Below are positions 28,642 through 56,813 of a stretch of DNA of 64,000 bases, one piece after another. The stretch covers positions 270,477 through 334,476 of the forward strand of contig JBAZKL010000002.1 of NCBI GenBank assembly GCA_041650835.1, in the 5' to 3' direction. A model generated the notes under the pieces. It saw only the letters and a list, made by a program, of their open reading frames with translations, did not search any database and had not been told where the DNA came from. Position numbers and translations under genes: made by a program. This DNA comes from Candidatus Omnitrophota bacterium. Lineage in GTDB: Bacteria > Omnitrophota > Gorgyraeia > Gygaellales > Profunditerraquicolaceae. The number at the start of each line of letters is the position of its first letter. Position 1 is the first letter of the stretch.

Positions 28642-30357
28642 ATGTCCACAAAATCCACAGTAATGATCGGTACGTTGCTGCTCGATCAAGGCATTATCAC
28701 CCAGGAACAGTTAGAAGCGGGCTTAAAAGAACAGAAGAAAACAAACGAACATATCTGCACAACCCTGGTGAGGCTCGGATTTGCGCTCGAGGAAAGGATA
28801 TTCACCGTACTTTCCCGTCAACTCAACGTCCCGTACGTCAAATTAAACGAATTAGAAATTCCCTCCGCAGTGATCCAAAAGGTCACTCCGAAATTCTCAA
28901 GCCATTATAAGATCATCCCTATTGATTTGACCGAAAACACACTGACCATCGCCATAGCAGACCCTCTGGATACCCGCACCCTTGACGACCTGCGGTTGCT
29001 GCTGGGTTTCGAGGTAAAAGGCGTCTTGACCAGTGAATTCCAGATCCAGGAAGCTATAAGGAAATATTACGGGGTTGGAGCTGAAACGCTTGAAAAAATG
29101 ATCCAGCAAAAGCTTCCCGATGAAGGGGTCAACCTCGATATTCAGAAGACTGAAGACCTTGAAGCCCTGGCTGAAGGCGCCTCGATCATAAAATTCGTCA
29201 ATCAAATACTGACCGAAGCCATTAAAGACCGGGCGACCGATATCCATCTGGAGCCGTTTGAAGGCGAATTACGCACGCGCTTTCGCATTGACGGGATACT
29301 CTATAATATCAACACTCCCAAAACGATCAGTTCGTTCCATCAAGCGATCGTTTCACGCATTAAGATCATGGCGAGCCTTAATATCGCGGAACACAGGCTG
29401 CCGCAGGATGGAAGGATCAAGATCGGCGTTAATAACACCGAACTTGACCTGCGTATTTCCACGCTGCCGACAGCTTTCGGGGAAGCGGTGCATATCAGGA
29501 TCTTAAGCCAGCGGTTTTTCCTTGAACTTGAGAAATTAGGGCTCCTGCCGCAGGACCTTGCGATCATCGAACAAGTGATCAAAAAACCGCACGGGATCAT
29601 TTTCGTAACCGGCCCTACCGGTTCAGGAAAATCAACCACACTCTATGCCAGCCTCGCGCGGATCAATTCCGATTCGGTTAAGATCATAACCATAGAAGAC
29701 CCCATAGAATATCAGCTCAAAGGCGTCAACCAAATGCAGGTCATCCCTAAGATCGGCCTCGATTTTGCCATGGGACTGAGGCACATGCTTCGCCATGACC
29801 CGGACATCATGATGATCGGGGAAGTCAGGGATTATGAGACCGCGGAAATCGCAATTCGCGCCGCGTTAACAGGGCACCTCGTTTTTTCAACCCTGCATAC
29901 CAATGACGCGCCCGGGGCGGTAACGCGCCTCGTCGACATGGGAATCGAACCATTTTTAGTATCCTCTTCGCTTGAATGCCTTATTGCCCAGCGTTTAGTG
30001 CGTATGATCTGCCCAAAATGTAAAGCTGCATTACCGGCAAAGAAAGCGATCCTTGGACGGGTCGATGATATGAATATGCCCCATAAAAACACGGTATTTT
30101 ATGAAGGCAAAGGTTGTGAAGAATGCCGTTTTACCGGATACCAGGGGAGGACCGCGATCTATGAGATCCTCACGATCACCGAAGCTATAAGAGACATGAT
30201 CATAAATCACTCCTCAAGCCAGCAGATTAAGCAAAAAGCCATTTCTCAAGGAATGCGCACGATGCGGCAAAACGGCATGCAAAAAGTAGAACTCGGCATC
30301 ACCACGTTCACTGAAGTTGTCCGCGTCACCCAACAGGAAGAATTACCTGAAGAATAA
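28642..30357 (+). CDS. gspE: Type II secretion / type IV pilus assembly ATPase
   Basis: N-terminal GSPII_E_N domain, Walker A GPTGSGKSTT, Asp/His boxes and a C-terminal tetracysteine (CPKC…CEEC). Confidence 0.9.
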   Translation: MSTKSTVMIGTLLLDQGIITQEQLEAGLKEQKKTNEHICTTLVRLGFALEERIFTVLSRQLNVPYVKLNELEIPSAVIQKVTPKFSSHYKIIPIDLTENTLTIAIADPLDTRTLDDLRLLLGFEVKGVLTSEFQIQEAIRKYYGVGAETLEKMIQQKLPDEGVNLDIQKTEDLEALAEGASIIKFVNQILTEAIKDRATDIHLEPFEGELRTRFRIDGILYNINTPKTISSFHQAIVSRIKIMASLNIAEHRLPQDGRIKIGVNNTELDLRISTLPTAFGEAVHIRILSQRFFLELEKLGLLPQDLAIIEQVIKKPHGIIFVTGPTGSGKSTTLYASLARINSDSVKIITIEDPIEYQLKGVNQMQVIPKIGLDFAMGLRHMLRHDPDIMMIGEVRDYETAEIAIRAALTGHLVFSTLHTNDAPGAVTRLVDMGIEPFLVSSSLECLIAQRLVRMICPKCKAALPAKKAILGRVDDMNMPHKNTVFYEGKGCEECRFTGYQGRTAIYEILTITEAIRDMIINHSSSQQIKQKAISQGMRTMRQNGMQKVELGITTFTEVVRVTQQEELPEE

Positions 30358-30359
30358 GC

Positions 30360-31568
30360 ATGCAGAAATATATTTATACCGCGAAATCAAGGCCGGGAGA
30401 GACTATTCAGGACAGCATTGAAGCGGAAACTGAAGAAGACGCCATAAATAAAATAACCCAGTTGGGATATTTTCCGGTTTCTATTCAGAACTCAGCGCCC
30501 CGCCTTCAAAAATCAGGTTTTCGCAGGCTCTTAAAGATATCCGATAAGAATATCGCCCTTTTCACCGTTCAACTCGCAAGCCTCTTGGAATCGGGCGTCA
30601 CCATTTTAAACAGCCTCACCATTGTATCCAATCAAACTGCCGATGCGTACTTTAAATCGGTATTACAGGATATCGCTCATAAGATCAGGAACGGAAAATC
30701 TTTATCGGAGAGTTTTGCCGAATATCCCGGGTTGTTCGCGCCGTTATACATCTCCATGATCCACTCAGGCGAAGTCAGCGGAGCGGTGGAGCCCTCACTC
30801 AAACGGCTGGCAGAATTCATGGAAAAAGAGGAGGAATTCAAAAGTTCGCTCTGGGCTGCGTTAACCTATCCGTTTTTTCTCTTAGCGGTCAGTATCATAA
30901 CGGTTTTGGTCCTTTTAGGGTTTGTTATTCCCCGGCTGGTCTCTATGTTCTCCGATATGGGACAGGTTTTACCGTTGCCGACACAAATTTTAGTTAATTT
31001 CTCGGCATTCTTGCGTAACTACTGGCTCATTATAGGATTAATCCTTATAACGATGGTTTTCATTATCCGCCAGCTCTACCTAAAACCTGAAGGGAGGCTC
31101 ATCTTTGACCGTTTCAAGATCCATATGCCGGGATTAGGGACCATTATCTTAAAGACTGAGATCAGCCGTTTCGTCCGCACGTTATCTCTTTTAATTTCAG
31201 GAGGGATCCCGATCGTATACGCGCTGGATGTCACCACTGCATCTATCCAAAACGTACTTTTAAAAAAAGAGGTCTTAACCTTTAAAGAAAAACTATCGCA
31301 TGGAACAAGCCTTTCCCAATGCCTCAAGGATTCCCGCTTATTCCCTGCCTTAGTTACTAACATCGTCAATACGGGGGAGGAATCGGGAAACCTGGAAAAA
31401 GCTCTTTTAAGGATCGCCATAGATTATGAAAAAGAGGTCGACCGCGTCATTAAAACGTTAACCCGGCTTTTAGAGCCGGTCATAATCTTGATCATGGGAT
31501 TAGTCGTCGGGTTTATCGTCATCTCAATGCTCTTGCCTATATTCCAGATCAATTTAATCGTGAGATAG
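30360..31568 (+). CDS. gspF: Type II secretion system F-family inner-membrane platform protein
   Basis: 402 aa with two T2SSF repeats and three TM segments. Confidence 0.85.
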   Translation: MQKYIYTAKSRPGETIQDSIEAETEEDAINKITQLGYFPVSIQNSAPRLQKSGFRRLLKISDKNIALFTVQLASLLESGVTILNSLTIVSNQTADAYFKSVLQDIAHKIRNGKSLSESFAEYPGLFAPLYISMIHSGEVSGAVEPSLKRLAEFMEKEEEFKSSLWAALTYPFFLLAVSIITVLVLLGFVIPRLVSMFSDMGQVLPLPTQILVNFSAFLRNYWLIIGLILITMVFIIRQLYLKPEGRLIFDRFKIHMPGLGTIILKTEISRFVRTLSLLISGGIPIVYALDVTTASIQNVLLKKEVLTFKEKLSHGTSLSQCLKDSRLFPALVTNIVNTGEESGNLEKALLRIAIDYEKEVDRVIKTLTRLLEPVIILIMGLVVGFIVISMLLPIFQINLIVR

Positions 31569-31572
31569 CCGA

Positions 31573-31992
31573 ATGGAACTAAAAACCTCGCCAAAACCTC
31601 ATCAAGCCTTTACCTTGATCGAATTGATCCTCGTCATAGTCATCATCGGGGTCTTAGCCGCGATGGTCGCTCCCCGGCTCGTGGGACGTTCTGAGCAGGC
31701 GAAGACCGCCGCCGCCCAATCAGAAATAAACGCAACCATCGCCCTGGCATTAGACGCGTTTGAAACCGATAATGACCGTTATCCCACGACCGCAGAAGGA
31801 CTCCAGTCGCTTATCGCTGACCCCGGATCGCTGCCTGGATGGAAAGGGCCGTACCTGAAAAAGATCCCCCATGACCCCTGGGGCCGGGCATACGCTTATA
31901 CCTCTCCCGGAACGCATAACCAGGATTATGATCTTTCATCTGCCGGCACCAACCTGATCGAAGGGGATAATGACGATATTGTTAACTGGTAA
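31573..31992 (+). CDS. gspG: Major pseudopilin GspG
   Basis: Prepilin leader plus GFTLIELILVIVIIGVLAA and the GspG hallmark DPWGRAYAY. Confidence 0.85.
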   Translation: MELKTSPKPHQAFTLIELILVIVIIGVLAAMVAPRLVGRSEQAKTAAAQSEINATIALALDAFETDNDRYPTTAEGLQSLIADPGSLPGWKGPYLKKIPHDPWGRAYAYTSPGTHNQDYDLSSAGTNLIEGDNDDIVNW

Positions 31993-31999
31993 GACAGCT

Positions 32000-32440
32000 A
32001 TGCGCAAAACGCCCGCGCGGGACGGTTTCACCTTCATTGAACTGCTTATCGTCATAACGCTGCTGGGGATCCTGACCGCCTTATCAATTCCCCAATTCAA
32101 GCGTTCCGCCGAAAACATGCAATTAACAAACAGCTCCGGGCAATTACAATCATATATTAATTTCCTGATCCAACGTTCACTCGTCGAAACAGTGCCGATA
32201 CGCCTGGTCCTGGACACGCAAAAAAACAGTTACCGGGCGCAAAGAAAAGAAGATATCGGTTACTTCCGGAATTTCCCGCTGCCCGAGGGGATAAAAATGG
32301 CAGCCGACAAACAGGAAATATTCGTATATCCTGACGGAACGATAGATAAGATCACGATCACGCTTACCAACAGGCAGAATAAGAGCATTACGCTCACCAC
32401 GCAAGGGGTGTTCGGTGGGACCAGGATCAAAACGCAATAA
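32000..32440 (+). CDS. Minor pseudopilin (GspH-like)
   Basis: MRKTPARDGFTFIELLIVITLLGIL prepilin N-terminus. An alternative upstream ATG at 31970 exists. Confidence 0.6.
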   Translation: MRKTPARDGFTFIELLIVITLLGILTALSIPQFKRSAENMQLTNSSGQLQSYINFLIQRSLVETVPIRLVLDTQKNSYRAQRKEDIGYFRNFPLPEGIKMAADKQEIFVYPDGTIDKITITLTNRQNKSITLTTQGVFGGTRIKTQ

Positions 32441-32789
32441 AAAAGCATTTTCATTACTGGAATTATTGCTCTCTATAGCGATACTTTCAACAGGTATCGT
32501 GGTCATCTTACAGGGTTTCACTTTTTCAACCCGCTCAGCGGCATTATCCTCCGACATGATACAAGCTATTTTCCTGGCGAAAGACAAACTGCAAGAGCTC
32601 GAATTCAAGGAAAATAACGCCCTTATCGCTTTTGAACCCCCTGACAGCCGCAAAACCGTTGGAAGGTTCCAAATGCGCTTTCTCAATGAACTCAACAAAG
32701 ACCTAAACCTATATACCTTAAACGCTGAAATAGCCTGGAAAAGGTCAAAAAGGGAAGAAAAGATGACCATGCAAACATATTTACGATGA
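32415..32789 (+). CDS. Minor pseudopilin (GspI-like)
   Basis: Short basic leader followed by AFSLLELLLSIAILSTGIVVI. Ala rather than Gly at the predicted cleavage site. Confidence 0.5.
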   Translation: MGPGSKRNKKAFSLLELLLSIAILSTGIVVILQGFTFSTRSAALSSDMIQAIFLAKDKLQELEFKENNALIAFEPPDSRKTVGRFQMRFLNELNKDLNLYTLNAEIAWKRSKREEKMTMQTYLR

Positions 32790-33364
32790 CCAATAAATAC
32801 CGGGGATTCACGCTTATAGAATTACTCATTGCCTCAACGCTCTTAGTCATCGTAGCCCTCAGTATTTTTTCTGCGCTCCAAACGGGGATATTTGGCTACG
32901 GGAACATTGACGAAACCCTCAACGGTTATTCAACAGGAGGGTACATATTAGAACGCATCAATACCGACTTAAGAAATGCGTTCTTGTTCTCAAAAAGCAA
33001 GCCTCATTTCTCGGGAACCGCGGCTGAAATCAGTTTTCTGACTATACTCGACAGCTACGAAGGGAACAGTCGTTCTAAAGATTTCGCGTTTATTTCCTAT
33101 AAACTTTCTGATAAGAAACTGTTGCGGTTATGCCGGAAGAACGCGGAAAGCCTCAACGAAAATTCCAGCATCCAACCTGAAGAAATGGTAGGTGATATCG
33201 ACACGATCTTGTTTTCGTACGGCTTGGCTGCCGACCCGAAAGAACCGCTCCTGTGGCAGGCGACCTGGAGCGCTCAAGAGAAATTGCCGAACGCGGTAAA
33301 GGTGATCCTGTCGATAAAGCAAAAAACACCGATTACCTTGGAACGGACTATTTATCTGCCTTAA
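32786..33364 (+). CDS. Minor pseudopilin (GspJ-like)
   Basis: MTNKYRGFTLIELLIASTLLVIVAL prepilin N-terminus. About 190 aa. Confidence 0.55.
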   Translation: MTNKYRGFTLIELLIASTLLVIVALSIFSALQTGIFGYGNIDETLNGYSTGGYILERINTDLRNAFLFSKSKPHFSGTAAEISFLTILDSYEGNSRSKDFAFISYKLSDKKLLRLCRKNAESLNENSSIQPEEMVGDIDTILFSYGLAADPKEPLLWQATWSAQEKLPNAVKVILSIKQKTPITLERTIYLP

Positions 33365-33388
33365 GGATAATAACCGGTCACGACATCG

Positions 33389-34360
33389 ATGATACGAAAT
33401 AAAGCGCAAGCGCTGATAATTACTCTCTGGACACTTATTATTTTAGCGATACTTGCAATAAGTATCGCCCACCGGGTTTCATTTTCACTCAAGGCCAGCA
33501 ATTTCCATAAAAACAAGCTTAAAGCTCAATACTGCGCTCACGCGGGATTAAACCGCGCGATCAGGGAGATCGATAATGACCAGACGCCGGATCGCGACTC
33601 CTTGAGAGAAAGCTGGGCGAACAACAAAGATATATTTGGAAAGATCGCCTTTAGTCAAGACTCAGGCAGCTTCTCAAGCGTCAGCTATCAGGCGGCCAAC
33701 ACCCAGGAAAATAGCCTGGTATTCGGGGTACGCGATGAAGAACGTTCGATCAACATCAATACCGCTTCCCGGGAATTATTGCTTTCTCTGTTTGAAAATT
33801 GCCAGATCCCTAACCCGAATGATCTTATTGATAATATCCTGATCTGGAGGGGAGACAAGGCCGACGAAAATAAAATTTATGAAAAAGCGGGTTATCCCTG
33901 TAAAGCGGATAAATTCAGCGTTCTTGAAGAATTACTCCTGGTTAAAGATTTCACCAAAGAATATCTGGAGAAACTAAGGATTTTTATAACCACCTATGGC
34001 AGCAATTCAACGGATGCGATCAATATAAACACCGCTTCACCTGAAACCCTGAAGGTCTTCTGCCGGTATGTCGCCCGTACCCTTGCGGAACCGCTCGAAG
34101 ACAATTACGCGGACGCGGTCGCGTCCAAAATAATAGAATTGCGCGACACTCAAGGTGAATTCCTTGATAAGAACGGGATCACCATAACGCTCTCCGGAGA
34201 TGAAGAAACCAACATATTCAACAGCCTCGTTGAAAAAGTTGAATTTAAATCCAACTATTTTTTAATTGAAGTTACCGGAAATACGGGTACAATAAAGAGT
34301 GGCATTGCCGCGGTTTACAACCGGGAAGAAAAGAAAATAATATCCTTTCATGAAAGCTAA
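33389..34360 (+). CDS. GspK-like minor pseudopilin
   Basis: N-terminal ALIITLWTLIILAILAISIA and two ININTAS helix-hairpin-helix-like segments typical of GspK. Confidence 0.6.
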   Translation: MIRNKAQALIITLWTLIILAILAISIAHRVSFSLKASNFHKNKLKAQYCAHAGLNRAIREIDNDQTPDRDSLRESWANNKDIFGKIAFSQDSGSFSSVSYQAANTQENSLVFGVRDEERSININTASRELLLSLFENCQIPNPNDLIDNILIWRGDKADENKIYEKAGYPCKADKFSVLEELLLVKDFTKEYLEKLRIFITTYGSNSTDAININTASPETLKVFCRYVARTLAEPLEDNYADAVASKIIELRDTQGEFLDKNGITITLSGDEETNIFNSLVEKVEFKSNYFLIEVTGNTGTIKSGIAAVYNREEKKIISFHES

Positions 34361-35792
34361 AGCTAAAAATCAGATTTTTGTCTGCCAGGTGATCGAAAAT
34401 ACCGTCAGGGTGCTTACATGCGCTCCCGAGCGTACTGGCCCCTTTGATTTTACCGCATTAGAAGTCATAGCATTGCCCGCCGATGAGGGAGCGGACGAAA
34501 AAAAGATCGCGCAAACATTAGCTGAAACCTTAAAAAAACTCGGATTCCAAAGGCAGGAGATCATTCTTTCTTTCCCTCGCGCGAACACGACCTGCCGGTA
34601 TCTCAAATTCCCCACAAACATACCCGAAGAAATAGATAAAATGCTTTCTTTACAAGCTTCACAATACCTGCCGTACCCCACGCAAGAATTGATCACCGCC
34701 TATCAGGTGATTGATCAAGATAAAAACGGCTTTACGCTGATCAACGCGGTTATCGCCCATGCAGAATCTGTCAAGCGCTCTCTCCGTATCTTTAACAACC
34801 TCAAATACTCTAAACTTTCGCTTATCTTAAGTTCCTACGGCATTAATAATCTTTTTTGCGCTTTATTCCCCCGGGAGACCGATCCCGTGATGCTTCTGGA
34901 TATTGACGGACAACAGGTAGAATTGATCGTCACCGGTAACGGTAAGATAATCTTCAACCGGTACTTTAAATTAAGCGGCGACTCATCCTTCTGGAAAAAC
35001 CTGCTGCGAGAAGAGATCCTAAAGACCCAGGATGCCTTTATAAAAGAAATAGGAAGACCGGCTCCTCAAAAAATGGTCTGTTTAGGGACCAAACAATCAC
35101 TGGCGCGGATCAACGAAATGCTCGATGAACAGTCCATCGCGTCCTGTGAAATGCGGCTCTTCCCCGATAAATTAAGATTATCCGATGCGGTAAACGAAGT
35201 ACTCTCTCAAACGCCGTTTTCTTATGCCGGTTTATTCGGCCTGGGCAAAAGCGAACCGGAAGAATCCTTAAAGCTCATCCCTCAGGATATCAAATCAGTA
35301 CATAAAAGGCTCACCCGGCGCTCTGAATATATCCGCGTTTCTCTCATGACCCTTGGCATCATATTCATGGTAGGCGCCGGAATAAACAAGTTCCTTGCTA
35401 CAAAAGCCGATTATTTAACCCGCTTAAAAAATGAACTTTCAAAGCTGGAAGCGCAGGCAAAACCGCTTGAAGAGATCGATACCAGACTTAAGATATTAGC
35501 AAGCAGGGCGGAAAAGCGGCTTTCAAGCCTTCAAGTATTCTATGAATTGAACAAAGCGCTCCCCGGGGCGATATCATTAACCAGCTTCACCTATGAAGAA
35601 AATTCGCAGATCATATTACACGGCCAAGCGCAAACCTTAAGTATCATATTCGAATTTGTATCTCAAATAGAAAAACAGCCGGTATTCAAGAATTTCACGG
35701 TAAAAGTAAAATATGCTACCCAGAATAAAAGCCAAACCGGCGATATAGTGGATTTTGAAATCACCTGTAACAATACTCCGGGAAAACAGTAA
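34350..35792 (+). CDS. PilM/GspL-like actin-fold protein fused to a PilN/GspM-like bitopic segment
   Basis: Roughly the first 330 aa have a PilM-like pattern. A TM helix RVSLMTLGIIFMVGAG then a coiled coil and a C-terminal periplasmic domain follow, as in PilN. Confidence 0.55.
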   Translation: MKAKAKNQIFVCQVIENTVRVLTCAPERTGPFDFTALEVIALPADEGADEKKIAQTLAETLKKLGFQRQEIILSFPRANTTCRYLKFPTNIPEEIDKMLSLQASQYLPYPTQELITAYQVIDQDKNGFTLINAVIAHAESVKRSLRIFNNLKYSKLSLILSSYGINNLFCALFPRETDPVMLLDIDGQQVELIVTGNGKIIFNRYFKLSGDSSFWKNLLREEILKTQDAFIKEIGRPAPQKMVCLGTKQSLARINEMLDEQSIASCEMRLFPDKLRLSDAVNEVLSQTPFSYAGLFGLGKSEPEESLKLIPQDIKSVHKRLTRRSEYIRVSLMTLGIIFMVGAGINKFLATKADYLTRLKNELSKLEAQAKPLEEIDTRLKILASRAEKRLSSLQVFYELNKALPGAISLTSFTYEENSQIILHGQAQTLSIIFEFVSQIEKQPVFKNFTVKVKYATQNKSQTGDIVDFEITCNNTPGKQ

Positions 35793-36319
35793 TGCAGAAA
35801 ATACTCACTCAAAGAGAAAAAACCACTTTATTCGCTACAATAGGGATAGTCTTCTTGAGCATATTGTATAATTTTACCATAACACCCGTCATCCGGAAAA
35901 ACAGCCTTTTAAATAAAGATATCCTCAGTACAAGAATGAAATTGAAAAAATACCTTATACTTTTAAGCCAAAAACAAAGCCTGCAAACAAAATACAACTA
36001 TTTAAACGTTGAAAAACCGGCTTCCGGGGTAAAAGAGAATTCAACGCTTATAACCCTTTCAGAAATTGAGAATATGGCGAATACCGCTCATATCCGTATC
36101 TTAGATATCAGGCCTCAATTGCGAAAAACTGAAGGCAGTTACGATGAAATCCTGATCGAATTAAGGACAGAAGGCTCACTCAATGATTATATTAAATTCA
36201 TTTATGACCTGGAGAACTCACTTTTATTATTACGGATCAAGCGATTTCAATTCAACTCCCGCAGTAACTCCGCGTTGCTTGAAGCGAATTTCAGCGTTTC
36301 CAAACTTGCTATTGATTAA
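35792..36319 (+). CDS. PilO/GspM-like inner-membrane protein
   Basis: N-terminal TM LFATIGIVFLSILYNF, a coiled coil and about 175 aa. Sits where pilO is expected. Confidence 0.5.
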   Translation: MQKILTQREKTTLFATIGIVFLSILYNFTITPVIRKNSLLNKDILSTRMKLKKYLILLSQKQSLQTKYNYLNVEKPASGVKENSTLITLSEIENMANTAHIRILDIRPQLRKTEGSYDEILIELRTEGSLNDYIKFIYDLENSLLLLRIKRFQFNSRSNSALLEANFSVSKLAID

Positions 36320-36432: not shown

Positions 36433-36660
36433 GTGGCTATTTCTAACACTTACTTAATAAAAGATTTAGCTCGCATTACCGGTTATTCAATTCACACCAT
36501 AAAGTTTTACCTCAAGATCGGCCTTCTGCAAGAGATCAGCCGGAGCCCTGAAACCCATTATCGGTATTTCAATGATTCCAGCGTTGAAACTTTAAAAGCA
36601 ATCCGCAATTTACGTAAACAAGGCAAATCAATAAAAGAAATAAAAAATGAGTTACTTTAA
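36433..36660 (+). CDS. MerR-family HTH transcriptional regulator (short, 75 aa)
   Basis: YLIKDLARITGYSIHTIKFYLKIGLL is a MerR-type HTH. GTG start directly after AAGGGAGG. Confidence 0.6.
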   Translation: MAISNTYLIKDLARITGYSIHTIKFYLKIGLLQEISRSPETHYRYFNDSSVETLKAIRNLRKQGKSIKEIKNELL

Positions 36661-37459
36661 GGTTTTAGGCCTTGAAAAAGAACCCTTTTCCACCAGCCCT
36701 GACCCTTCGTTTCTGTATCGTTCCGTCAGCCACGACACCGCGCTCAAACGCATCGAGATCGCCATACGGCTGCGCAGAGGCTTAAGTTTGATCTTAGGTG
36801 ACGTCGGCATGGGTAAAACAACGCTCTCTCGCACGCTCCTGCAAACTTTTAAAAGCGAAAATGACTTTGTCTTCCACATGATACTCGACCCGGGGTACAA
36901 ATCAGAATTTCAGTTCTTATTGAGCCTGACAAAGATTTTCGGGATAAGATCGACTTTTAAATCTACATTGACCTTTAAGGAAGACCTGGAAAAATATTTG
37001 TTTCATGCCGGTATTAACGAAAATAAAACGATCATTCTCCTAATTGATGAAGGGCAAACCATCTCGACCGAGAACCTCGAAGTCTTACGCATGCTGCTTA
37101 ACTATGAAACCAATGAATTCAAGCTTTTACAACTGGTGATCTTAGCGCAAATGGAACTCCTGCCGAGGATCAAGAGGATCAATAACTTCGTCGATCGTAT
37201 CGCCCTTAAATACACTATTAATCCGTTCGATGAAACAGAAGTAAAAGAAATGATCGTATTCCGGCTTCTGCAGGCAGGGCATAAGTCTCCCGACGAGTTA
37301 TTTTCACCGGGCGCGATCCGCTTGATCCATGAGCAAACTCAAGGGCATCCCCGAAAGATAGCGCTGCTCTGCCATGATGCCCTCGAGACTATCGTCATGC
37401 AGGATAAACACACAGTCAACGAAGAAATTATCCAAAATCTATTAAAGGCGCGGGTCTAA
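36647..37459 (+). CDS. ExeA/GspA-like AAA ATPase
   Basis: LGLEKEPFSTSPDPSFLY…LGDVGMGKTTL and the LLIDEGQ Walker B are characteristic of the ExeA family. Confidence 0.7.
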   Translation: MSYFKVLGLEKEPFSTSPDPSFLYRSVSHDTALKRIEIAIRLRRGLSLILGDVGMGKTTLSRTLLQTFKSENDFVFHMILDPGYKSEFQFLLSLTKIFGIRSTFKSTLTFKEDLEKYLFHAGINENKTIILLIDEGQTISTENLEVLRMLLNYETNEFKLLQLVILAQMELLPRIKRINNFVDRIALKYTINPFDETEVKEMIVFRLLQAGHKSPDELFSPGAIRLIHEQTQGHPRKIALLCHDALETIVMQDKHTVNEEIIQNLLKARV

Positions 37460-37461
37460 TT

Positions 37462-38097
37462 ATGGCTGACAACATTTCCCCTGAAGAAAAACTTTTACGG
37501 CTTATACGAAATGAGCCCAAACGGCAGCTTCCCCCGGAAAAACAATCGGTACTGCAAACCGGAAGGGTCAACCCTGTCCAAGAACCAGTTAGCCGGGCAA
37601 AAAAAGAAAAGTTAACGGCCAACCTGCGGAAAAAGATCTTATCATTGAATCCGTCAAGAATAGTATTGATCTGTTTTTTTATTTCTCTGGCTTATTTTAC
37701 CGGCTCCTTCGTTTATCCTGTTTTGATCCCTTCCCGGATCAAGATTCCTGACATACAGCAACAAAACATCAAGCAGGAGCCTGTTATAGATCAAAGCTCC
37801 ATAAAACCGCTTGAGTTTTACCGGATGGGCATCGCCAATCAAGAGATGTTTCACAGCCAACCCGCGCAGGAAACAGCCGCGAGCGCCTCAGCAGTCAATC
37901 ACGACATCCTCAATGACATAAACCTTATTGGGGTCATTGCCGGCGATAACCCGCAGGCAGTCATAGAAGACAAAAAAACAGGCAAGACCTTTTATGTTTC
38001 CAAAGGACAACTCATAGGAGATCTTCAGGTAGAAGATATACTTGACGGCAAAATAATCCTTAATCTTAAGGGACAGAAATTTGAACTCTATTTATAA
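37462..38097 (+). CDS. PilP/GspC-like bitopic protein (HR-domain candidate)
   Basis: N-terminal TM, Pro/Gln-rich linker and a C-terminal beta-rich segment LIGVIAGDNPQAVIEDKKTGKTFYVSKGQLIGDLQVEDI…. Lies immediately upstream of the secretin. Weak assignment. Confidence 0.4.
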   Translation: MADNISPEEKLLRLIRNEPKRQLPPEKQSVLQTGRVNPVQEPVSRAKKEKLTANLRKKILSLNPSRIVLICFFISLAYFTGSFVYPVLIPSRIKIPDIQQQNIKQEPVIDQSSIKPLEFYRMGIANQEMFHSQPAQETAASASAVNHDILNDINLIGVIAGDNPQAVIEDKKTGKTFYVSKGQLIGDLQVEDILDGKIILNLKGQKFELYL

Positions 38098-38346
38098 ATG
38101 GGACACCCCGGTACAAAGGACCGCAGGGTATTACGCTTACTGCGGAATGTTTCACTTGCTGTTTTACACCCCGCGCTCATAGCACCCCAGCTTATCGGAT
38201 TGCTGGGTATGCCGCCTTCTGCCCAGAAAGGGCGCACCCAGTATACCTATGAGCTGGAGTGCTGCGGCAGAATTGCGCGGGTGTTTCACTTGCTGTTTTA
38301 CACCCCGCGCTTAAGAGGAATTGCGCGGGTGTTTCACTTGCTGTGA
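38098..38346 (+). repeat. Hairpin-forming tandem repeat array (family shared with 56590-56775)
   Basis: Unit GAATTGCGCGGGTGTTTCACTTGCTGTTTTACACCCCGCGCT at 38262-38311. A truncated copy at 38140-38177 and a partial copy at 38316-38344. Shared leader GGGTATGCCGCCTTCTGC at 38205-38222. Stems GCGCGGGTGT / ACACCCCGCGC. Confidence 0.8.
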
Positions 38347-38359
38347 AAGGAGAAAAAAG

Positions 38360-40255
38360 ATGAAAAAAACAATTACCGCATATTTATGTTTACTCATACT
38401 CCTCTTGAACATACGGGCCTTCGCGCAGGAAAAGCCCTTAAGCCCGCAGCAGAGGCAAATGGAAATATCAAAGCCAACCGAACAAAACAAAATTTCCCTT
38501 GATATCAAAGGCATGGACATTACCGATGTCCTTAAGATGCTGGCGACACGGTCCGGCTTAAATATCATCGTCGGCAAGAATGTAACGGGTAAAGTGACCC
38601 TTTTCCTGAAAGATGTCGACCTGTGGGAAGCCTTTCAGATACTCTTATCCGCCAATGAATTGGCTTATGACAAGAAAAACGATATAATCAACGTCATGAC
38701 GCAAAGGGATTATGAACTTATTAACGGTGAACGCTTCCAGGACAAAAAAAGGGTACAGGTATTCCATTTAAAGAATGCCAAAGCTGCCGACTTATCAAAA
38801 GCCATATTGCAGCTCAAATCGAATATCGGTAAAGTTGTGGTCGATGAAGGTTCAAATACCCTGACCATTGTCGATACGCAGGAGAAGATGGAAGAAATAG
38901 GAAGCTTTATCGAGAAAACAGACTTACCCCTGGAAACCAGGATATTTGAGCTTCAATACGCCACGGCGGAAAAGATCAGCGCAAAGCTTGCTGAATCGAT
39001 CACAAAATCAATCGGTTCCATGAAGATCGATGAACGGACAAATAAGATCGCGGTAACCGATTACCCTGATAAGCTCAATGAAATAGCAAGGATCATCACT
39101 GCCTTTGATGAAAAGACACAACAGGTCTTAATAGACGCCCAGATCATTGAGATCAGCCCTCAAAAAGACCAGTTCACCATGGGAATTGACTGGGATTACT
39201 GGCTTAAAAACAATGTCCGCCTCGTCAGCTCGCTTGCCGCGCCCTCTTTAAGCGATGTTACCTCCATACCGAACAAGTTATCTTTCGGAGTCGCCGCTGC
39301 AAACGAAACAGTAAATACACAAGGCGATTATAAAGCGGTGATCGACCTTCTCAGAACAATAGGAAAGACCAAGATCCTTTCGAGCCCCCGGATCATGGCC
39401 CTGAACAACCAGGAAGCAAAGATCCTCGTTGGGACGAAAGAGGCCTATATCACTTCCGCGATCACGCAATCGGGAGAATCGGCAGTCACTTCTCAATCTG
39501 TGAATTTTGTGGATGTCGGCATCAAGCTCTATGTTACCCCTACGATAAACCGGGATGGGTTCGTCACCATGAAAATAAAACCGGAGATCAGCTCTGCCAA
39601 ACGCACGGATATAACTGCCGACGGGAAGATCACTCAAATCCCCATCGTTACCACATCTGAATCAGAAACAACGATCATGGTAAAAGACGGCACAACCATT
39701 ATTATCGCCGGCCTCAAAAAAGACCAGCAGGAAAAAGAAGAAAAGAAGATCCCCATCCTGGGTGATATACCGATCCTGAACCTTTTCACGAAAAATAAAA
39801 GGACCGAGAACATCAAGACCGAGCTCGTTATATTTATTACCCCGCATGTGATCAGCGGAGCTGAACCCCTGGATTACAACAGCCTCACCGGGGATAAAGA
39901 TATAAGCTATATCCAGTCTTTTGCCCAAGCCCACGGACTGGACAATGCCGCCGGGAATGAAGAGGCGGAGCCCGACTCATTAGAAGCATACAAATCATCC
40001 ATTAAAAATAAGATAAAAGCCGTTATGAAGGCAAAAATACGCCCCGATGCGGCTCAAAAAGGCAAAGTCTATTTGTCTTTTACCCTTGACGATACAGGTA
40101 ATGTCAAAGGCCCGGTAAACATTATTTCCTCCACTAACCAGAATTTAAACGTTATTGCTGAACTCAGCGTATTAGAAGCATCTCCATTCTCACCGATGCC
40201 CGCGAAACTGGGAAGACCGGAAGAAAATTTTTCATTGACGCTGACATTTGAATAA
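38360..40255 (+). CDS. gspD: Secretin (GspD/PilQ family) with a C-terminal TonB-C-like domain
   Basis: Signal peptide after AAGGAG. N0/N1 domains and a secretin core (…ILSSPRIMALNNQEAKILVG…). The last 100 aa or so (…KGKVYLSFTLDDTGNV…ASPFSPMPAKL…FSLTLTFE) match the C-terminus of the TonB-like protein at 56814-57503. Confidence 0.85.
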   Translation: MKKTITAYLCLLILLLNIRAFAQEKPLSPQQRQMEISKPTEQNKISLDIKGMDITDVLKMLATRSGLNIIVGKNVTGKVTLFLKDVDLWEAFQILLSANELAYDKKNDIINVMTQRDYELINGERFQDKKRVQVFHLKNAKAADLSKAILQLKSNIGKVVVDEGSNTLTIVDTQEKMEEIGSFIEKTDLPLETRIFELQYATAEKISAKLAESITKSIGSMKIDERTNKIAVTDYPDKLNEIARIITAFDEKTQQVLIDAQIIEISPQKDQFTMGIDWDYWLKNNVRLVSSLAAPSLSDVTSIPNKLSFGVAAANETVNTQGDYKAVIDLLRTIGKTKILSSPRIMALNNQEAKILVGTKEAYITSAITQSGESAVTSQSVNFVDVGIKLYVTPTINRDGFVTMKIKPEISSAKRTDITADGKITQIPIVTTSESETTIMVKDGTTIIIAGLKKDQQEKEEKKIPILGDIPILNLFTKNKRTENIKTELVIFITPHVISGAEPLDYNSLTGDKDISYIQSFAQAHGLDNAAGNEEAEPDSLEAYKSSIKNKIKAVMKAKIRPDAAQKGKVYLSFTLDDTGNVKGPVNIISSTNQNLNVIAELSVLEASPFSPMPAKLGRPEENFSLTLTFE

Positions 40256-47830: not shown

Positions 47831-48052
47831 CCGCTCTCACACTTAATTTTGGCGGAAAAACCATCCCGAGTTTACGCTGAAAATTCATCAAGATTCACCC
47901 GCTCCCCATACAGAATCTTTATGAATTTTCAAGTGCTTAAACGAGGGATACAAGTATTTAACAGTTAAAGTAAATTTCTTAATTTAGTTAAAAAGTGATC
48001 CACAAGCCGATTTTTGCGGCGGTGCTTAAGCGCGGAATATATACATACTCAC

Positions 48053-50820: not shown

Positions 50821-50822
50821 TT

Positions 50823-51975: not shown

Positions 51976-51976
51976 T

Positions 51977-53766: not shown

Positions 53767-53784
53767 ACCAAGGAGGTTTCCCCC

Positions 53785-54666: not shown

Positions 54667-56511
54667 ATGAAAACACGCAGCAAGAAAACAATTCTCACCG
54701 CGCTAACGCTTTTATGCTTTTATGGGGCCGCGCGCAGCCAGGACCTGTCATTAGAAAAGATTGTCGTAACCCCTTCACGCATCGAAGAACCATCGGGAAA
54801 TACCCCTCAAAAGGTCGATACGATAACTTCAAAAGACCTTGAGAAATCAGGTTCAAACGGCCTCACCGAGCTTCTCACGCAATTCACCGCGGTCAATATA
54901 AGTAATTACGGAGGGCCGGGGGCGACCAAAAACATCCGCATGCGCGGGGCAAGCGCGGCGCAAACTTTAGTCATGGTCGACGGCAGGCCTATCAACAGCC
55001 CGAGAGACGGAGAAGCGGACCTAAGCATGATCCCGCTTGATACGGTAGATACGATAGAAATTGTGCATGGGCCGGCATCCCATCTCTACGGATCAAGCGC
55101 CATGGGCGGGGCAATTAACATCCTCACCAAAGATCCTCCGCTCAAAAGCCCGAAAACAGAACTATATTCCAGCATCGGGACTTACCGCACTTATACCCAG
55201 CGAATGGTCAATGGGAACGCAAACTCGATTTTCGGATACCTTATTACCCATGGATATACCCATTCAGACGGCTTCCGGGAAAACGCGTTATTCAACGCGC
55301 AGGATTATAACGCGAAATTCAAATACACGCCTCAAGATGCCCACGCGATCGTATTCAATTCAGGATTTTATTCCAGCAACCTCGGCTCACCCGGCACAAT
55401 ATCCCAGCCTGATACCGATGACAAGCAAAATACTCTAAAGAATTTTCAGGACCTCACCTGGAAATATACACCCGATGAATCGGCCGGATTATCGTTGAAA
55501 TCCTATCATAGTTACGATAAATTGATCTTCAGCGAGAACACGGCAGGGTCTTTTTTTGATACCGCAAATAAAAGAGATATCCATACGACCAACGTAACGG
55601 GCTTTGACCTGGGAGGCAATAAAAAATTCTTCCAGGAGCGCTTGCACCTTATATGCGGCTTTAACTATATCGGCAACACCAATGACAGCACTAATTCCCA
55701 AAAGCATAACTACCACGTCGTAGCCGGATATTTAGAGGACAAATTCATTGCTTTAGAGGACCTGGAATTCAACTTCGGCGCAAGATTCGACGATTATTCA
55801 AATTTCGGGACTCAATGCAATCCCAATTTTTCTTTTCTTTACCGCTTCAGTCCATCCTTAAAATTCCACGGATTGATCAGCCGGTCTTTTCGCGCGCCTA
55901 CTTTTAACGATCTATACTGGCCTGACGAAGGATGGGCAAAGGGAAATCCCGCATTAAAACCGGAAAAAGGAATAACAGGAGAGATCGGCACAACCATATC
56001 GTGCGGCGGCTTTCTCACTACGCGCCTGGGGTATTTCAGGAACGCCTTTCATGACCTCATCAACTGGGCGGAGGCAGGGGGAGTTTGGATGCCGCAAAAT
56101 GTAGGATCGGCGCTCACCGACGGCATAGAATTCGAGAATAAGGTATCGTTTACAAAAAATATCCAGTTTAATACCGGATATACCTTCTTACGCGCGAAAG
56201 ATGCCAAAACAAATAAATATCTTGTCTATCAACCAAAACATAAAGCTGATTGTTCGCTTTCGTACGCTGATCTACGCGGCTTTTCCATAAAAATAAACGC
56301 TCAATTTACCGACAAGCGCTACCATGATGCCGCCAACTCGGTTAAAGTTAAAAGATTTTACGTATTCGGGATCCAAGCAGCAAAGAAATTCAAGCAGAAT
56401 TACACTTATTTCTTTTCTATTGAAAACCTCAGCAACCAAAAATATGAGGTGATCCGGGAATTCCCTATACCGGGATTCACGGTCACCAACGGCATGAAAA
56501 TAGAGTTTTAA
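54667..56511 (+). CDS. btuB: TonB-dependent outer-membrane receptor (cobalamin receptor candidate)
   Basis: Signal peptide, TonB box IVVTPSR, plug domain, 22-strand barrel and a C-terminal …KIEF aromatic terminus. Preceded by a B12 riboswitch. Confidence 0.8.
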   Translation: MKTRSKKTILTALTLLCFYGAARSQDLSLEKIVVTPSRIEEPSGNTPQKVDTITSKDLEKSGSNGLTELLTQFTAVNISNYGGPGATKNIRMRGASAAQTLVMVDGRPINSPRDGEADLSMIPLDTVDTIEIVHGPASHLYGSSAMGGAINILTKDPPLKSPKTELYSSIGTYRTYTQRMVNGNANSIFGYLITHGYTHSDGFRENALFNAQDYNAKFKYTPQDAHAIVFNSGFYSSNLGSPGTISQPDTDDKQNTLKNFQDLTWKYTPDESAGLSLKSYHSYDKLIFSENTAGSFFDTANKRDIHTTNVTGFDLGGNKKFFQERLHLICGFNYIGNTNDSTNSQKHNYHVVAGYLEDKFIALEDLEFNFGARFDDYSNFGTQCNPNFSFLYRFSPSLKFHGLISRSFRAPTFNDLYWPDEGWAKGNPALKPEKGITGEIGTTISCGGFLTTRLGYFRNAFHDLINWAEAGGVWMPQNVGSALTDGIEFENKVSFTKNIQFNTGYTFLRAKDAKTNKYLVYQPKHKADCSLSYADLRGFSIKINAQFTDKRYHDAANSVKVKRFYVFGIQAAKKFKQNYTYFFSIENLSNQKYEVIREFPIPGFTVTNGMKIEF

Positions 56512-56589
56512 TTCTACGGTTATCGGTTCGAGGTAATTTTTGTCCGATAACCGAACACCGATAACCCCCGGCGCAGATCGCACCCCTCC

Positions 56590-56775
56590 TTATTGGAATG
56601 GCGGGGTATGCCGCCTTCTGCGGCAGAATTGCGCGGGGTGTGCTGCTTTCTGCTTTACACCACCGCGCTGATCGGAATTGCGCGGGGTGTGCTGCTTTCT
56701 GCTTTACACCACCGCGCTGATCGGAATTGCGCGGGGTGTGCTGCTTTCTGCAGCACCGATAACCGAAACAGCATA
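56590..56775 (+). repeat. Hairpin-forming tandem repeat array with a 49-bp unit (family shared with 38098-38346)
   Basis: GAATTGCGCGGGGTGTGCTGCTTTCTGCTTTACACCACCGCGCTGATCG at 56626-56674 and 56675-56723, plus a partial third copy. Leader GGGTATGCCGCCTTCTGCGGCAGAATTGCGCGG at 56604-56636. Flanked by CCGATAACCGAA at 56553-64 and 56756-67. Confidence 0.85.
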
Positions 56776-56813
56776 TTTCTTGCAAAATAGGCGCGATATG
56801 TTAACCTAATATC

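What the first reader, a model, noticed from the sequence alone, without database searches (positions are those of the whole stretch)
38360..40255. Secretin with a C-terminal TonB-C/TolA-C-like domain
After the conserved secretin core, the last 100 aa or so (…YKSSIKNKIKAVMKAKIRPDAAQKGKVYLSFTLDDTGNVKGPVNIISSTNQ…ASPFSPMPAKL…FSLTLTFE) are clearly homologous to the C-terminal domain of the TonB protein at 56814. The shared blocks are VYLSF, SPFP.FPKEL and SFTVIISFE. I do not recall secretins with this fusion. It could tether the secretin to peptidoglycan or to the outer membrane the way TonB/TolA C-domains do, or let it bind TonB-box partners. Both genes carrying this domain share the upstream repeat element.
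Basis: seen in the sequence. Interest (0 to 1): 0.65.

Follow-up and report, generated by a model that had tools for sequence, protein, structure and literature searches.

The report
Secretin carrying a TonB-type tail domain
The outer-membrane channel protein (secretin) of a type II secretion/pilus machine in a Candidatus Omnitrophota genome ends in a real TonB/TolA-type docking domain; the fusion is conserved across that phylum, I found no paper describing it, and its role is unknown, most likely anchoring or assembling the channel.

Summary
ORF 38360-40255 encodes a 631-aa secretin: signal peptide, N0/STN, two Secretin_N domains, then a secretin core (Pfam E 4e-45). After the core come one helix and a short disordered linker, and residues 541-631 form a TonB/TolA-type C-terminal domain.

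Evidence for the tail:
- BLASTP against the window's TonB gives E 9e-8.
- A profile of 51 homologous tails hits that TonB at E 1e-19 and solved H. pylori TonB-CTD at E 2e-7.
- The AlphaFold model (pLDDT 85) has an alpha-beta-beta-alpha-beta fold, and its top 27 PDB matches are all TonB/HasB/FusB/TolA C-domains.

The window is Candidatus Omnitrophota. The fusion is common there: 70 of 80 species-level genomes and 49 of the 150 best 50%-identity clusters have it. Variants lack the tail, carry three tails, or carry TPR repeats instead.

It is not a TonB. It has no inner-membrane anchor and no long spacer, so NCBI's "energy transducer TonB" names for homologues are misnomers.

The most likely role is a passive periplasmic docking or anchoring module at the position of the pilotin-binding S-domain. 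This is inferred, not shown.

The shared upstream repeat is real. It is a REP/REPIN-like palindromic element that also precedes an unrelated gene.

Verdict: new variant of a known kind, moderate interest.

The parts
38360..40255 (+). Whole gene: 631-aa secretin with a C-terminal TonB/TolA-type domain
   Evidence: ORF list. 100% identical to P0001, named 'secretin N-terminal domain-containing protein [Candidatus Omnitrophota bacterium]'.
38360..38428 (+). Sec signal peptide (MKKTITAYLCLLILLLNIRAFA|QE). There is no lipobox, so it is not a liposecretin.
   Evidence: Read directly from the translation. The model has a helix at residues 2-19 followed by a disordered stretch at 21-41.
38489..38725 (+). 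N0 / STN domain (residues 44-122)
   Evidence: Pfam type_II_gspD_N0 E 2e-7 and STN E 1e-5. Secondary structure in the full-length model.
38747..39106 (+). Two ring-building Secretin_N domains (residues 130-249)
   Evidence: Pfam Secretin_N E 1.6e-23, two stretches. Model.
39122..39853 (+). Secretin beta-barrel core (residues 255-498)
   Evidence: Pfam Secretin E 4.1e-45. The best solved relatives are PilQ 4av2 (E 1.5e-34) and GspD 5wln. All these alignments stop at query residues 498-523.
39896..39949 (+). Post-core helix (residues 513-530, DKDISYIQSFAQAHGLDN) at the position of a secretin S-domain
   Evidence: Full-length AlphaFold model helix H513-530. The segment is conserved as 'KDIxxIQSLAKAE' in linker type A, and tail-less orthologues keep it.
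39950..39979 (+). Disordered linker of variable length (residues 531-540)
   Evidence: pLDDT below 50 at residues 528-536. Length varies by about 10-25 residues and identity is 24% among homologues.
39980..40252 (+). TonB/TolA-type C-terminal domain (residues 541-631), fold alpha-beta-beta-alpha-beta
56814..57503 (+). Genuine TonB (229 aa). It has an N-terminal membrane helix with an SxxxH motif (SILAH), and its C-domain is the window's closest relative of the secretin tail.
   Evidence: Pfam TonB_2 E 1.7e-7. NCBIfam tonB_Cterm 33.1 bits, above the 27.1 cut-off. 120 Omnitrophota homologues of about 227 aa.
54667..56511 (+). TonB-dependent receptor (Plug plus barrel) directly upstream of the TonB gene, at the end of a cobalamin salvage and transport operon
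   Evidence: Pfam hits. Cobalamin riboswitch at 47602-47730.
28642..36319 (+). Upstream type II secretion / type IV pilus-like genes: GspE/MshE ATPase, GspF, GspG, minor pseudopilins, GspJ, GspK, a PilM-PilN fusion and a PilO/GspM-like protein
   Evidence: Pfam hits.
36433..38097 (+). Conserved three-gene module just before the secretin: a 75-aa MerR-like HTH protein, a 270-aa ExeA/MshM-like AAA ATPase with no peptidoglycan-binding domain, and a 211-aa GspC/GspB-like protein
   Evidence: Conserved synteny in 51, 59 and 71 of 80 related loci respectively.
38098..38359 (.). REP/REPIN-like palindromic repeats between the GspC-like gene and the secretin. They include an inverted pair (38186-38258) and GAATTGCGCGGGTGT...ACACCCCGCGC hairpins.
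   Evidence: RNA fold z = -4.2. The spacer is much shorter in the close relatives L001 and L002.
56512..56813 (.). The same element family between the receptor and the TonB gene: one two-hairpin copy (about 56580-56625) plus three 49-bp tandem units (56626-56772)
   Evidence: RNA fold z = -7.0. A related copy sits at the same place in a relative genome (L201).

Best explanation
**What it is (shown).** This is the outer-membrane secretin of a complete type II secretion / type IV pilus-like system in a Candidatus Omnitrophota bacterium. Its polypeptide continues past the beta-barrel core. After the core come one helix (513-530) and a short flexible linker. The chain then ends in a folded domain of about 90 residues that is homologous to the C-terminal domains of TonB and TolA. 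Its closest relative is the C-domain of the Omnitrophota TonB family.

**How it most likely works (inferred).** In solved secretins the C-terminus emerges on the outside of the barrel, just under the outer membrane. Each of the 12-15 subunits would therefore hang one TonB-type domain in the outer periplasm. All well-characterised TonB/TolA C-domains bind a short partner peptide as an extra beta-strand. I therefore propose that the tail is a passive, non-energised docking module. It would capture a strand of a partner protein at the inner face of the outer membrane. That would target, assemble or anchor the secretin ring, a job otherwise done by the S-domain plus pilotin, by AMIN domains, or by the 'TonB-like' assembly factor ExeB/GspB.

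It cannot be an energy transducer, because it is not connected to an ExbB/ExbD motor in the inner membrane.
For: **Identity**
- Domain architecture and gene context.
- Homology of the tail to TonB: pairwise E 9e-8; tail profile against the window TonB, E 1.1e-19; tail profile against solved H. pylori TonB-CTD 6sly/5lw8, E 2-3e-7, and HasB, E 0.008; 42/51 and 39/51 homologous tails hit Pfam TonB_2 and TonB_C.
- Fold: AlphaFold pLDDT 85 with helix 19-39, strands 48-57 and 62-71, helix 74-87, strand 101-110. Foldseek ranks 1-27 are all TonB/HasB/FusB/TolA C-domains.

**Selection**
- 116 of the 120 closest homologues carry a C-terminal extension of >=100 residues after the secretin core, and the tail HMM hits 116 of the 120. 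70 of 80 species-representative genomes do too: 69 in frame and one in another frame. The domain's structural residues (G48, F54, G60, F104, the PF..P motif) are invariant or nearly so.

**Accessory, position-specific role**
- Orthologues without the tail stop right after the post-core segment.
- Other relatives carry three tandem tails or TPR repeats at the same position. From my own knowledge, TPR is the fold of type IV pilus pilotins and of MshN.
- No solved secretin aligns beyond residue ~523.

**Need for an anchor**
- This secretin has no AMIN domain, no lipobox and no pilotin gene in the locus. Its ExeA-like ATPase lacks the peptidoglycan-binding half.
- N-terminal extensions are frequent in tail-less relatives (40/89) and rare in tail-bearing ones (3/29). 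At least two of the ten tail-less extensions scanned contain AMIN domains.

**Precedent**
- ExeB was described as TonB-like and binds the secretin N0-N1 domains during assembly. N0 itself resembles the signalling domain of TonB-dependent receptors (PMC4098917).
- AMIN domains on PilQ are an accepted localisation and anchor module (PMC2572700).
Against: - No partner has been identified.
- The mature N-terminus of the secretin has no conserved TonB-box-like motif (consensus).
- No gene in the 80 related loci tracks tail presence, and no split TonB_C gene sits near the tail-less secretins.
- The tail evolves fast: 37.5% mean identity, against 73% for the secretin core and 74% for the C-domains of the genuine TonB family. 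At least 8 of 80 species have lost it. So it is dispensable, and it is not under the constraint expected of a domain that must recognise many TonB boxes.
- For this one sequence the Pfam TonB_C score is 1 bit under the curated cut-off.
- The position of the C-terminus relative to the membrane is taken from solved secretins of other families, not measured here. The monomer model gives no reliable inter-domain geometry (pTM 0.44).
- The contrast in N-terminal extensions is confounded by phylogeny.
Confidence: 0.5

Rival explanations
1. Peptidoglycan anchor. The tail binds the cell wall rather than a protein. It would fix the secretin ring in the envelope, as AMIN domains do for PilQ and as the periplasmic domain of full-length ExeA does for the Aeromonas secretin.
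For: - This secretin has no AMIN domain, and the locus's ExeA-like ATPase (270 aa) lacks the periplasmic peptidoglycan-binding half.
- Tail-less relatives more often have N-terminal extensions, some with AMIN.
- AMIN is described as a secretin localisation module in PMC2572700.
- One review's model treats TonB as anchored to peptidoglycan (PMC9389320).
Against: - No wall-binding family is hit: TonB_C and TonB_2 are the only significant matches in the tail.
- The documented ligands of TonB/TolA C-domains in the matched PDB entries are protein strands: the BtuB, FhuA and FoxA TonB boxes, the TolB N-terminus, phage g3p and colicins.
- Peptidoglycan binding by TonB C-domains is, to my knowledge, weakly supported. 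I could not find a primary source in the library.
Confidence: 0.2
2. Self-association or assembly brace. The tails bind each other, or bind a strand of the neighbouring subunit or of the subunit's own N0/STN domain. This could form a peripheral collar that stabilises the multimer, or it could act as an intramolecular chaperone before membrane insertion.
For: - The local concentration of tails around a 12-15-mer ring would be high.
- One relative has three tandem tails, which suits avidity or collar formation.
- The same polypeptide contains an STN/N0 domain, the fold that sits next to TonB boxes in TonB-dependent transducers. ExeB-N0 binding was proposed to mimic the TonB-receptor interaction (PMC4098917).
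Against: - No conserved strand motif is visible in the variable linker or in the mature N-terminus.
- The linker is only about 10-25 residues. By my estimate, not a measurement, that is too short to reach the N0 ring in an assembled channel.
- Tail-less orthologues evidently assemble without it.
Confidence: 0.15
3. TonB-box capture. The tail binds the TonB boxes of TonB-dependent receptors. This would either cluster uptake receptors around the secretion channel or compete with TonB as a decoy.
For: - The tail's nearest relative is the lineage's own TonB C-domain: 65 bits against 34 bits for H. pylori TonB.
- The genome encodes TonB-dependent receptors.
- From knowledge of solved secretins, the secretin C-terminus lies at the same depth of the envelope as TonB boxes.
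Against: - The tails are far more divergent than the TonB C-domains (37.5% against 74% identity) and form a separate clade. That does not fit a shared, conserved set of TonB-box ligands.
- No receptor gene is linked to the secretin locus in 80 genomes.
Confidence: 0.1

Closest known systems
GspD / PilQ / MshL secretins with a C-terminal S-domain and cognate pilotin
   Same: It has a signal peptide, N0/STN, Secretin_N ring domains and a secretin barrel. The gene lies at the end of a GspE-F-G...K-L/M-like operon. A short helix follows the barrel where the S-domain begins.
   Different: - It reaches no NCBIfam equivalog cut-off: PilQ 252 bits against 284, GspD 246 against 351, MshL 187 against 250.
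- After the helix comes a folded TonB-type domain rather than a pilotin-binding helix.
- No pilotin gene is present in the locus.
- No solved secretin aligns past residue ~523.
TonB, HasB, FusB and TolA C-terminal domains (Pfam TonB_C PF03544 / TonB_2 PF13103)
   Same: The fold and the conserved core residues are the same. There is significant profile similarity and a structural match.
   Different: - It is attached to the C-terminus of an outer-membrane beta-barrel protein, not to an inner-membrane anchor plus a periplasm-spanning spacer.
- It cannot be coupled to ExbB/ExbD or TolQ/TolR.
- It evolves about twice as fast as the TonB C-domain of the same phylum.
ExeA/ExeB (GspA/GspB) secretin assembly factors of Aeromonas and Vibrio
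   Same: An ExeA-like ATPase gene and a small bitopic GspC/GspB-like gene sit directly upstream of the secretin. ExeB was described as TonB-like and binds the secretin periplasmic domains (PMC4098917).
   Different: - Here the true TonB-type domain is on the secretin itself, not on the assembly factor.
- The ExeA-like protein is only the cytoplasmic ATPase half.
- The ExeB resemblance to TonB concerns overall layout and the proline-rich region, not a demonstrated TonB_C fold.
AMIN domains of PilQ, and TsaP/LysM or ExeA peptidoglycan-binding modules
   Same: The concept is the same: an accessory periplasmic domain that positions or anchors a secretin. AMIN-bearing N-terminal extensions occur in tail-less relatives.
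   Different: The fold, the end of the protein and the depth in the envelope all differ. No wall binding is shown for the tail.
Other non-TonB proteins carrying TonB_C, such as Bacteroides Peptidase_M56-TonB_C proteins and Myxococcus GltG/GltJ (AgmX/PglI)
   Same: These show that TonB_C is a mobile interaction module reused outside iron uptake (Table 1 of PMC10350073). There is a weak NCBIfam hit to the AgmX/PglI C-terminal domain, E 0.0098.
   Different: Those proteins are still anchored in the inner membrane. Here the carrier is an outer-membrane channel.

Membership tests
Secretin superfamily (PF00263) | C-terminal secretin beta-barrel domain | tested here: met
   Pfam Secretin E 4.1e-45, residues 331-498 covering profile positions 2-168 of 169. 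PDB PilQ and GspD hits at E 1e-34 to 1e-26.
Secretin superfamily (PF00263) | N0/STN domain plus one or more Secretin_N ring-building domains, and a Sec signal peptide | tested here: met
   type_II_gspD_N0 E 2e-7, STN E 1e-5, and Secretin_N E 1.6e-23 in two stretches. The signal peptide is read from the sequence. The model agrees.
Secretin superfamily (PF00263) | Encoded with type II secretion / type IV pilus assembly genes | tested here: met
   GspE, F, G, J and K, PilM-N and PilO-like genes at 28642-36319. The synteny is conserved in related loci.
Specific secretin subfamilies (GspD, PilQ, MshL equivalogs) | Score above the NCBIfam curated cut-off | tested here: not met
   PilQ 252.2 bits against 284.35, GspD 245.8 against 351.35, MshL 187.4 against 250.2. 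It is a secretin of unresolved subtype.
Secretin superfamily (PF00263) | Forms a 12-15-mer gated channel in the outer membrane | not testable with these tools
   Only monomer prediction is available. Lipid A acyltransferase (43016-43912) and TonB-dependent receptor genes show that the organism has an outer membrane.
TonB_C / TolA-C domain superfamily | Significant match to the TonB_C or TonB_2 profiles | tested here: inconclusive
   For this sequence alone the result is inconclusive: TonB_C 23.6 bits (E 7.5e-5) against a 24.6-bit cut-off, and TonB_2 15.3 bits against 22. For the family it is met: 42/51 and 39/51 tails match at E<=1e-3, best 5e-10, and many homologues carry precomputed PF03544/PF13103.
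TonB_C / TolA-C domain superfamily | Profile-level homology to experimentally solved TonB C-domains and to a genuine TonB of the same genome | tested here: met
   Tail profile against 6sly E 1.9e-7, 5lw8 E 3e-7 and 2m2k E 0.008. Against window TonB 56814, E 1.1e-19.
TonB_C / TolA-C domain superfamily | alpha-beta-beta-alpha-beta fold with a three-stranded sheet | tested here: met
   AlphaFold pLDDT 85 and pTM 0.71. The Foldseek top 27 PDB hits are all TonB/HasB/FusB/TolA C-domains, with TM 0.35-0.60 normalised to the query.
TonB_C / TolA-C domain superfamily | Binds a partner peptide by beta-strand augmentation | not testable with these tools
   No complex prediction or binding assay is available.
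TonB energy-transducer proteins (the name NCBI gives some homologues) | N-terminal inner-membrane anchor with an SxxxH motif that couples to ExbB/ExbD | tested here: not met
   The N-terminus is a cleavable signal peptide followed by N0. By contrast, the genuine TonB at 56814 has the SILAH anchor.
TonB energy-transducer proteins (the name NCBI gives some homologues) | Long proline-rich or charged spacer that crosses the periplasm | tested here: not met
   Only one helix and a 10-25-residue variable linker separate the barrel from the domain.
Pilotin-dependent secretins (S-domain) | C-terminal S-domain helices and a cognate pilotin lipoprotein gene | tested here: inconclusive
   One helix (513-530) follows the core. 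One GspD alignment runs to residue 523. No pilotin-like gene was recognised in the window, but one could be encoded elsewhere.
REP / REPIN elements (for the shared upstream repeat) | Short GC-rich imperfect palindromes in extragenic DNA, often as inverted pairs, with copy number that varies between relatives | tested here: met
   Hairpin units and an inverted pair at 38186-38258. Tandem 49-bp units. Expanded relative to L001 and L002. Stems covary while the loops are conserved.
REP / REPIN elements (for the shared upstream repeat) | Many copies genome-wide and an associated RAYT transposase | not testable with these tools
   Only 64 kb of the genome is available, and it holds three sites. The collection scan of a 15-mer was swamped by chance matches.

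The most novel reading that the evidence does not exclude
The secretin uses its own TonB-type domains to grab TonB-box-like strands of other outer-membrane proteins. The partners could be TonB-dependent receptors or an unrecognised partner. This would build a fixed supercomplex in which the secretion or pilus channel and the uptake receptors are physically coupled, with no proton-motive force involved. It would be a natural 'Rosetta stone' for the long-suspected TonB-like/secretin (ExeB-ExeD, N0/STN) interaction.
Probability: 0.15. Interest if true: 0.75.

Novelty: new variant of a known kind. Interest (0 to 1): 0.5.

Why it matters
- Secretins are studied as drug targets and as models of outer-membrane channel assembly. 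How they are targeted and anchored differs between systems (pilotins, AMIN domains, ExeAB, TsaP).
- A phylum-wide secretin clade with a TonB/TolA-type domain at the S-domain position adds a fourth solution.
- It gives a testable handle on the old idea that TonB-like strand capture plays a part in secretin assembly.
- It matters for annotation. Several homologues are named 'energy transducer TonB' or 'TonB family protein' in NCBI and JGI, which is wrong for an outer-membrane channel.
- It concerns the envelope machinery of Omnitrophota, a little-studied phylum known almost entirely from metagenome-assembled genomes and described as having a host-dependent metabolic profile.

Tried and rejected
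- The search for related loci with the tail alignment A1 failed because no stretch was conserved enough. I used the full-length alignment A2 instead.
- The listing of cluster members returned almost no names for the divergent tail-bearing representatives. I could not settle whether the fusion exists outside Omnitrophota. 18 of the 80 genome records carry other labels (Planctomycetales, Planctomycetia, Patescibacteria, Deltaproteobacteria, Cyanobacteriota, 'bacterium'). One 'Planctomycetales' record is 89% identical to this Omnitrophota protein, so I treat those labels as unreliable.
- RNAalifold on the MAFFT alignment of repeat copies recovered only 3 pairs, because stem lengths differ and the alignment is out of register. 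A hand-written descriptor scan worked better.
- Rfam has no family at either repeat region.
- Rejected: that the tail is a canonical S-domain. It gives no such match, and its fold is TonB-like.
- Rejected: that the fusion is an assembly or frameshift artefact. The single ORF recurs in 69 genomes.
- Rejected: that the protein is a TonB. It has no inner-membrane anchor.
- Rejected: that the shared repeat marks co-regulation of TonB_C genes. A copy also precedes a DUF1257 gene.
- Rejected: that a split TonB_C gene compensates in tail-less loci. None was found.
Full report
**1. The observation**

The ORF list shows a 644-codon frame opening at TTG 38321. The ATG at 38360 follows AAAGGAGAAAAAAG and starts a typical signal peptide (MKKTITAYLCLLILLLNIRAFA|QE). 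The 631-aa product is identical to a database protein named 'secretin N-terminal domain-containing protein [Candidatus Omnitrophota bacterium]' from an 868-kb contig.

Pfam gives N0/STN (48-112), Secretin_N x2, and Secretin (331-498, E 4e-45). At the very end it gives TonB_C (565-620, 23.6 bits, E 7.5e-5, cut-off 24.6) and TonB_2 (543-627, E 0.022).

BLASTP of the last 111 residues against ORF 56814-57503 gives 29% identity over 105 residues, E 9e-8.

ORF 56814 is a genuine TonB:
- It is 229 aa with an N-terminal helix carrying SILAH.
- TonB_2 scores E 1.7e-7, and NCBIfam tonB_Cterm scores above its cut-off.
- It sits right after a Plug-plus-barrel TonB-dependent receptor, at the end of a cobalamin salvage and transport operon headed by a cobalamin riboswitch.

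**2. Is the tail really a TonB-type domain?**

I aligned the tails of 51 diverse homologues (A1).
- As an HMM, this profile finds only two ORFs among all 453 six-frame ORFs of the window: the secretin (95 bits) and the TonB (65 bits, E 1.1e-19).
- Against all PDB sequences it finds only TonB proteins: H. pylori TonB-CTD 6sly (E 1.9e-7) and 5lw8 (E 3e-7), and HasB 2m2k (E 0.008).
- Scanned one by one, 42 of 51 tails hit TonB_2 and 39 of 51 hit TonB_C at E<=1e-3. No other family appears.
- AlphaFold on A1 gives a confident model (pLDDT 85, pTM 0.71) with helix 19-39, strands 48-57 and 62-71, helix 74-87 and strand 101-110.
- Foldseek against the PDB returns only TonB, HasB, FusB and TolA C-terminal domains in ranks 1-27.

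**3. Architecture of the whole protein**

The full-length model (113-sequence alignment, pLDDT 73) shows:
- N0 (44-122)
- two ring domains (130-187, 192-249)
- the barrel (255-498)
- a helix (513-530)
- a disordered stretch around 528-540
- the TonB-type domain (541-630)

Solved PilQ and GspD sequences align only up to residues 498-523. NCBIfam does not place the protein in GspD, PilQ or MshL at equivalog level.

The gene closes a full GspE-F-G-(pseudopilins)-J-K, PilM/N, PilO-like operon. It is immediately preceded by a 75-aa MerR-like protein, a 270-aa ExeA/MshM-like ATPase and a 211-aa GspC/GspB-like protein. That three-gene module is conserved in 51, 59 and 71 of 80 related loci respectively.

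**4. Distribution**

- Of the 120 closest proteins (52-94% identity), 116 carry a C-terminal extension of >=100 residues after the core, and the tail HMM hits 116 of them. The four without one include at least one annotated as partial.
- In one genome per species (GTDB), 511 relatives were detected. The best 80 loci are overwhelmingly Omnitrophota MAGs. 69 have the tail in frame, one has it in another frame, two are cut by contig ends, and eight truly lack it.
- Among the 150 best 50%-identity cluster representatives of 1.8 billion proteins, 49 have the tail.
- There are two linker types, and both occur with and without the tail.
- Variants at the same position include three tandem tails (P0158) and TPR repeats (P0226 and P0246).
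- Tail-less relatives more often have N-terminal extensions: 40/89 against 3/29, Fisher p 7e-4, though phylogenetically confounded. Two of the ten tail-less extensions scanned contain AMIN domains.
- I found no paper describing a secretin-TonB_C fusion.

**5. Relation to TonB**

The Omnitrophota TonB family (120 proteins) has C-domains that are 74% identical to each other. The secretin tails are 37.5% identical to each other and 30% identical to the TonB domains, and the two groups separate cleanly.

Both groups share the same core pattern: Y..V..KI, G.V...F.L...G.L, SS, L...A...IK.ASPFP.FP, F.I.L.Y.

The tail is thus an old, separately evolving offshoot of the TonB-type domain. It is under looser constraint than the domain that must recognise many TonB boxes.

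**6. Mechanism**

*Shown:* identity, fold, position in the chain, conservation and modular replaceability.

*Taken from established secretin structures* (GspD, PilQ, InvG; my own knowledge): the C-terminus lies on the outside of the barrel, just beneath the outer membrane. The multimer would therefore display 12-15 copies there.

*Taken from established TonB/TolA biology and the PDB entries matched:* these domains bind partner peptides by strand addition.

*Inferred:* the tail is a passive docking or anchoring module that takes the place of the S-domain/pilotin, AMIN or ExeB-type helpers. It cannot transduce energy because it has no inner-membrane anchor.

*Rivals:* a peptidoglycan anchor, a self-associating collar or intramolecular chaperone, and capture of receptor TonB boxes. 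None can be separated with the available tools.

*Precedent for a TonB-like/secretin link:* ExeB is 'TonB-like', binds secretin N0-N1, and N0 resembles the signalling domain of TonB-dependent receptors (PMC4098917).

**7. The upstream repeat**

The element is a family of GC-rich palindromes with two hairpins. The stems differ and covary between copies:
- stem 1: CCCAGC/GCTGGG, CCGGCGCAG/TTGCGCCGG, CCGCGC/GCGCGG
- stem 2: GCCGCC/GCGGC, GCCAC/GTGGC, CCCCCC/GGGGG, GCTGC/GCAGC

The loops are conserved (T(T/A)AT(C/T)GGA(A/T)T and (C)TTTCT).

Upstream of the secretin, two copies are inverted and fold into one long hairpin (z = -4.2). Upstream of TonB there are three 49-bp tandem units.

The close relatives L001 and L002 have much shorter versions. 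A third window copy precedes a DUF1257 gene. This is REP/REPIN-like behaviour, not a link between TonB_C genes.

One point remains unexplained. In the other genomes where the element was found inside a secretin locus (L002, L020, L070), it again sits at the GspC-like/secretin junction. In the genome of L002 it is also upstream of TonB.

**8. Verdict**

It is a phylum-wide domain architecture that automatic annotation has seen, and sometimes misnamed, but that no paper in the library describes. It is a new variant of a known kind (secretin plus accessory anchoring/assembly domain). Its mechanism is open, and interest is moderate.

Noticed in passing
window 1040-1130, 38098-38359, 56512-56813; L002 5890-5990; L201 2780-2860; L020 5550-5610; L070 5930-5990: A dispersed two-hairpin palindromic element with covarying stems and conserved loops (T(T/A)AT(C/T)GGA(A/T)T and (C)TTTCT). 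It has no Rfam family. It behaves like a REP/REPIN, with inverted pairs, tandem units and variable copy number. In four genomes, however, it sits exactly at the GspC-like/secretin junction, and in two of those genomes it also lies upstream of TonB. It might be an mRNA-stabilising or processing signal.
   Followed up: partly
window 36433-36660: A 75-aa MerR-type HTH gene overlaps the start of the ExeA-like ATPase gene inside the secretion operon. It is conserved at 45-90% identity in 51 of 80 related loci, which is better than the neighbouring GspC-like gene. That is an unusual constant member of a type II secretion locus.
   Followed up: partly
proteins P0226, P0246 and P0158 (relatives, not in the window): Related secretins carry other C-terminal additions at the same position: TPR repeats (extensions of 392-615 aa) or three tandem TonB-type domains. 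The secretin C-terminus looks like a hot spot for accessory-domain fusion in this clade.
   Followed up: partly
window 36647-37459: The ExeA/MshM-like ATPase is only 270 aa, with no membrane or peptidoglycan-binding half. Its best NCBIfam match is the XrtA/PEP-CTERM system-associated ATPase (167 bits, below the 324.5 cut-off).
   Followed up: no
window 47602-57503: A cobalamin riboswitch (83 bits) heads a long same-strand run of genes: periplasmic binding protein, FecCD permease, ABC ATPase, histidine phosphatase-family protein (His_Phos_1), CobU, CobT-like DBI_PRT, CobS, a diphthamide-synthase-like protein, a BtuB-like TonB-dependent receptor and TonB.
   Followed up: no
window 13231-23454: Three paralogous sensor kinases of about 725 aa (HisKA_7TM N-terminus, two of them with GAF) are spaced regularly, with small genes and methyltransferases between them. 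This looks like a tandemly duplicated signalling module.
   Followed up: no
window 38098-38346 and 56593-56790 (+), 56483-56785 (-): The ORFs listed here (82, 65 and 100 aa) lie wholly or mainly inside the palindromic repeats. Their translations repeat themselves (for example RIARVFHLL twice). They are almost certainly not genes.
   Followed up: yes
loci L001, L008, L011, L026, L041, L047 and others: Eighteen of the 80 genome records with this secretin are labelled Planctomycetales/Planctomycetia, Patescibacteria, Deltaproteobacteria, Cyanobacteriota or just 'bacterium'. L001 ('uncultured Planctomycetales') is 89% identical and syntenic to this Omnitrophota locus, so these labels are probably coarse or wrong.
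   Followed up: partly
window 61570-62063, 60128-60328: Bacterial RNase P RNA class A (216 bits) and two tRNA genes.
   Followed up: no
window 34350-35792: PilM-like and PilN-like domains are fused in one 480-aa protein, followed by a PilO/GspM-like gene. This is a GspL-like arrangement within an otherwise Gsp-type operon.
   Followed up: no
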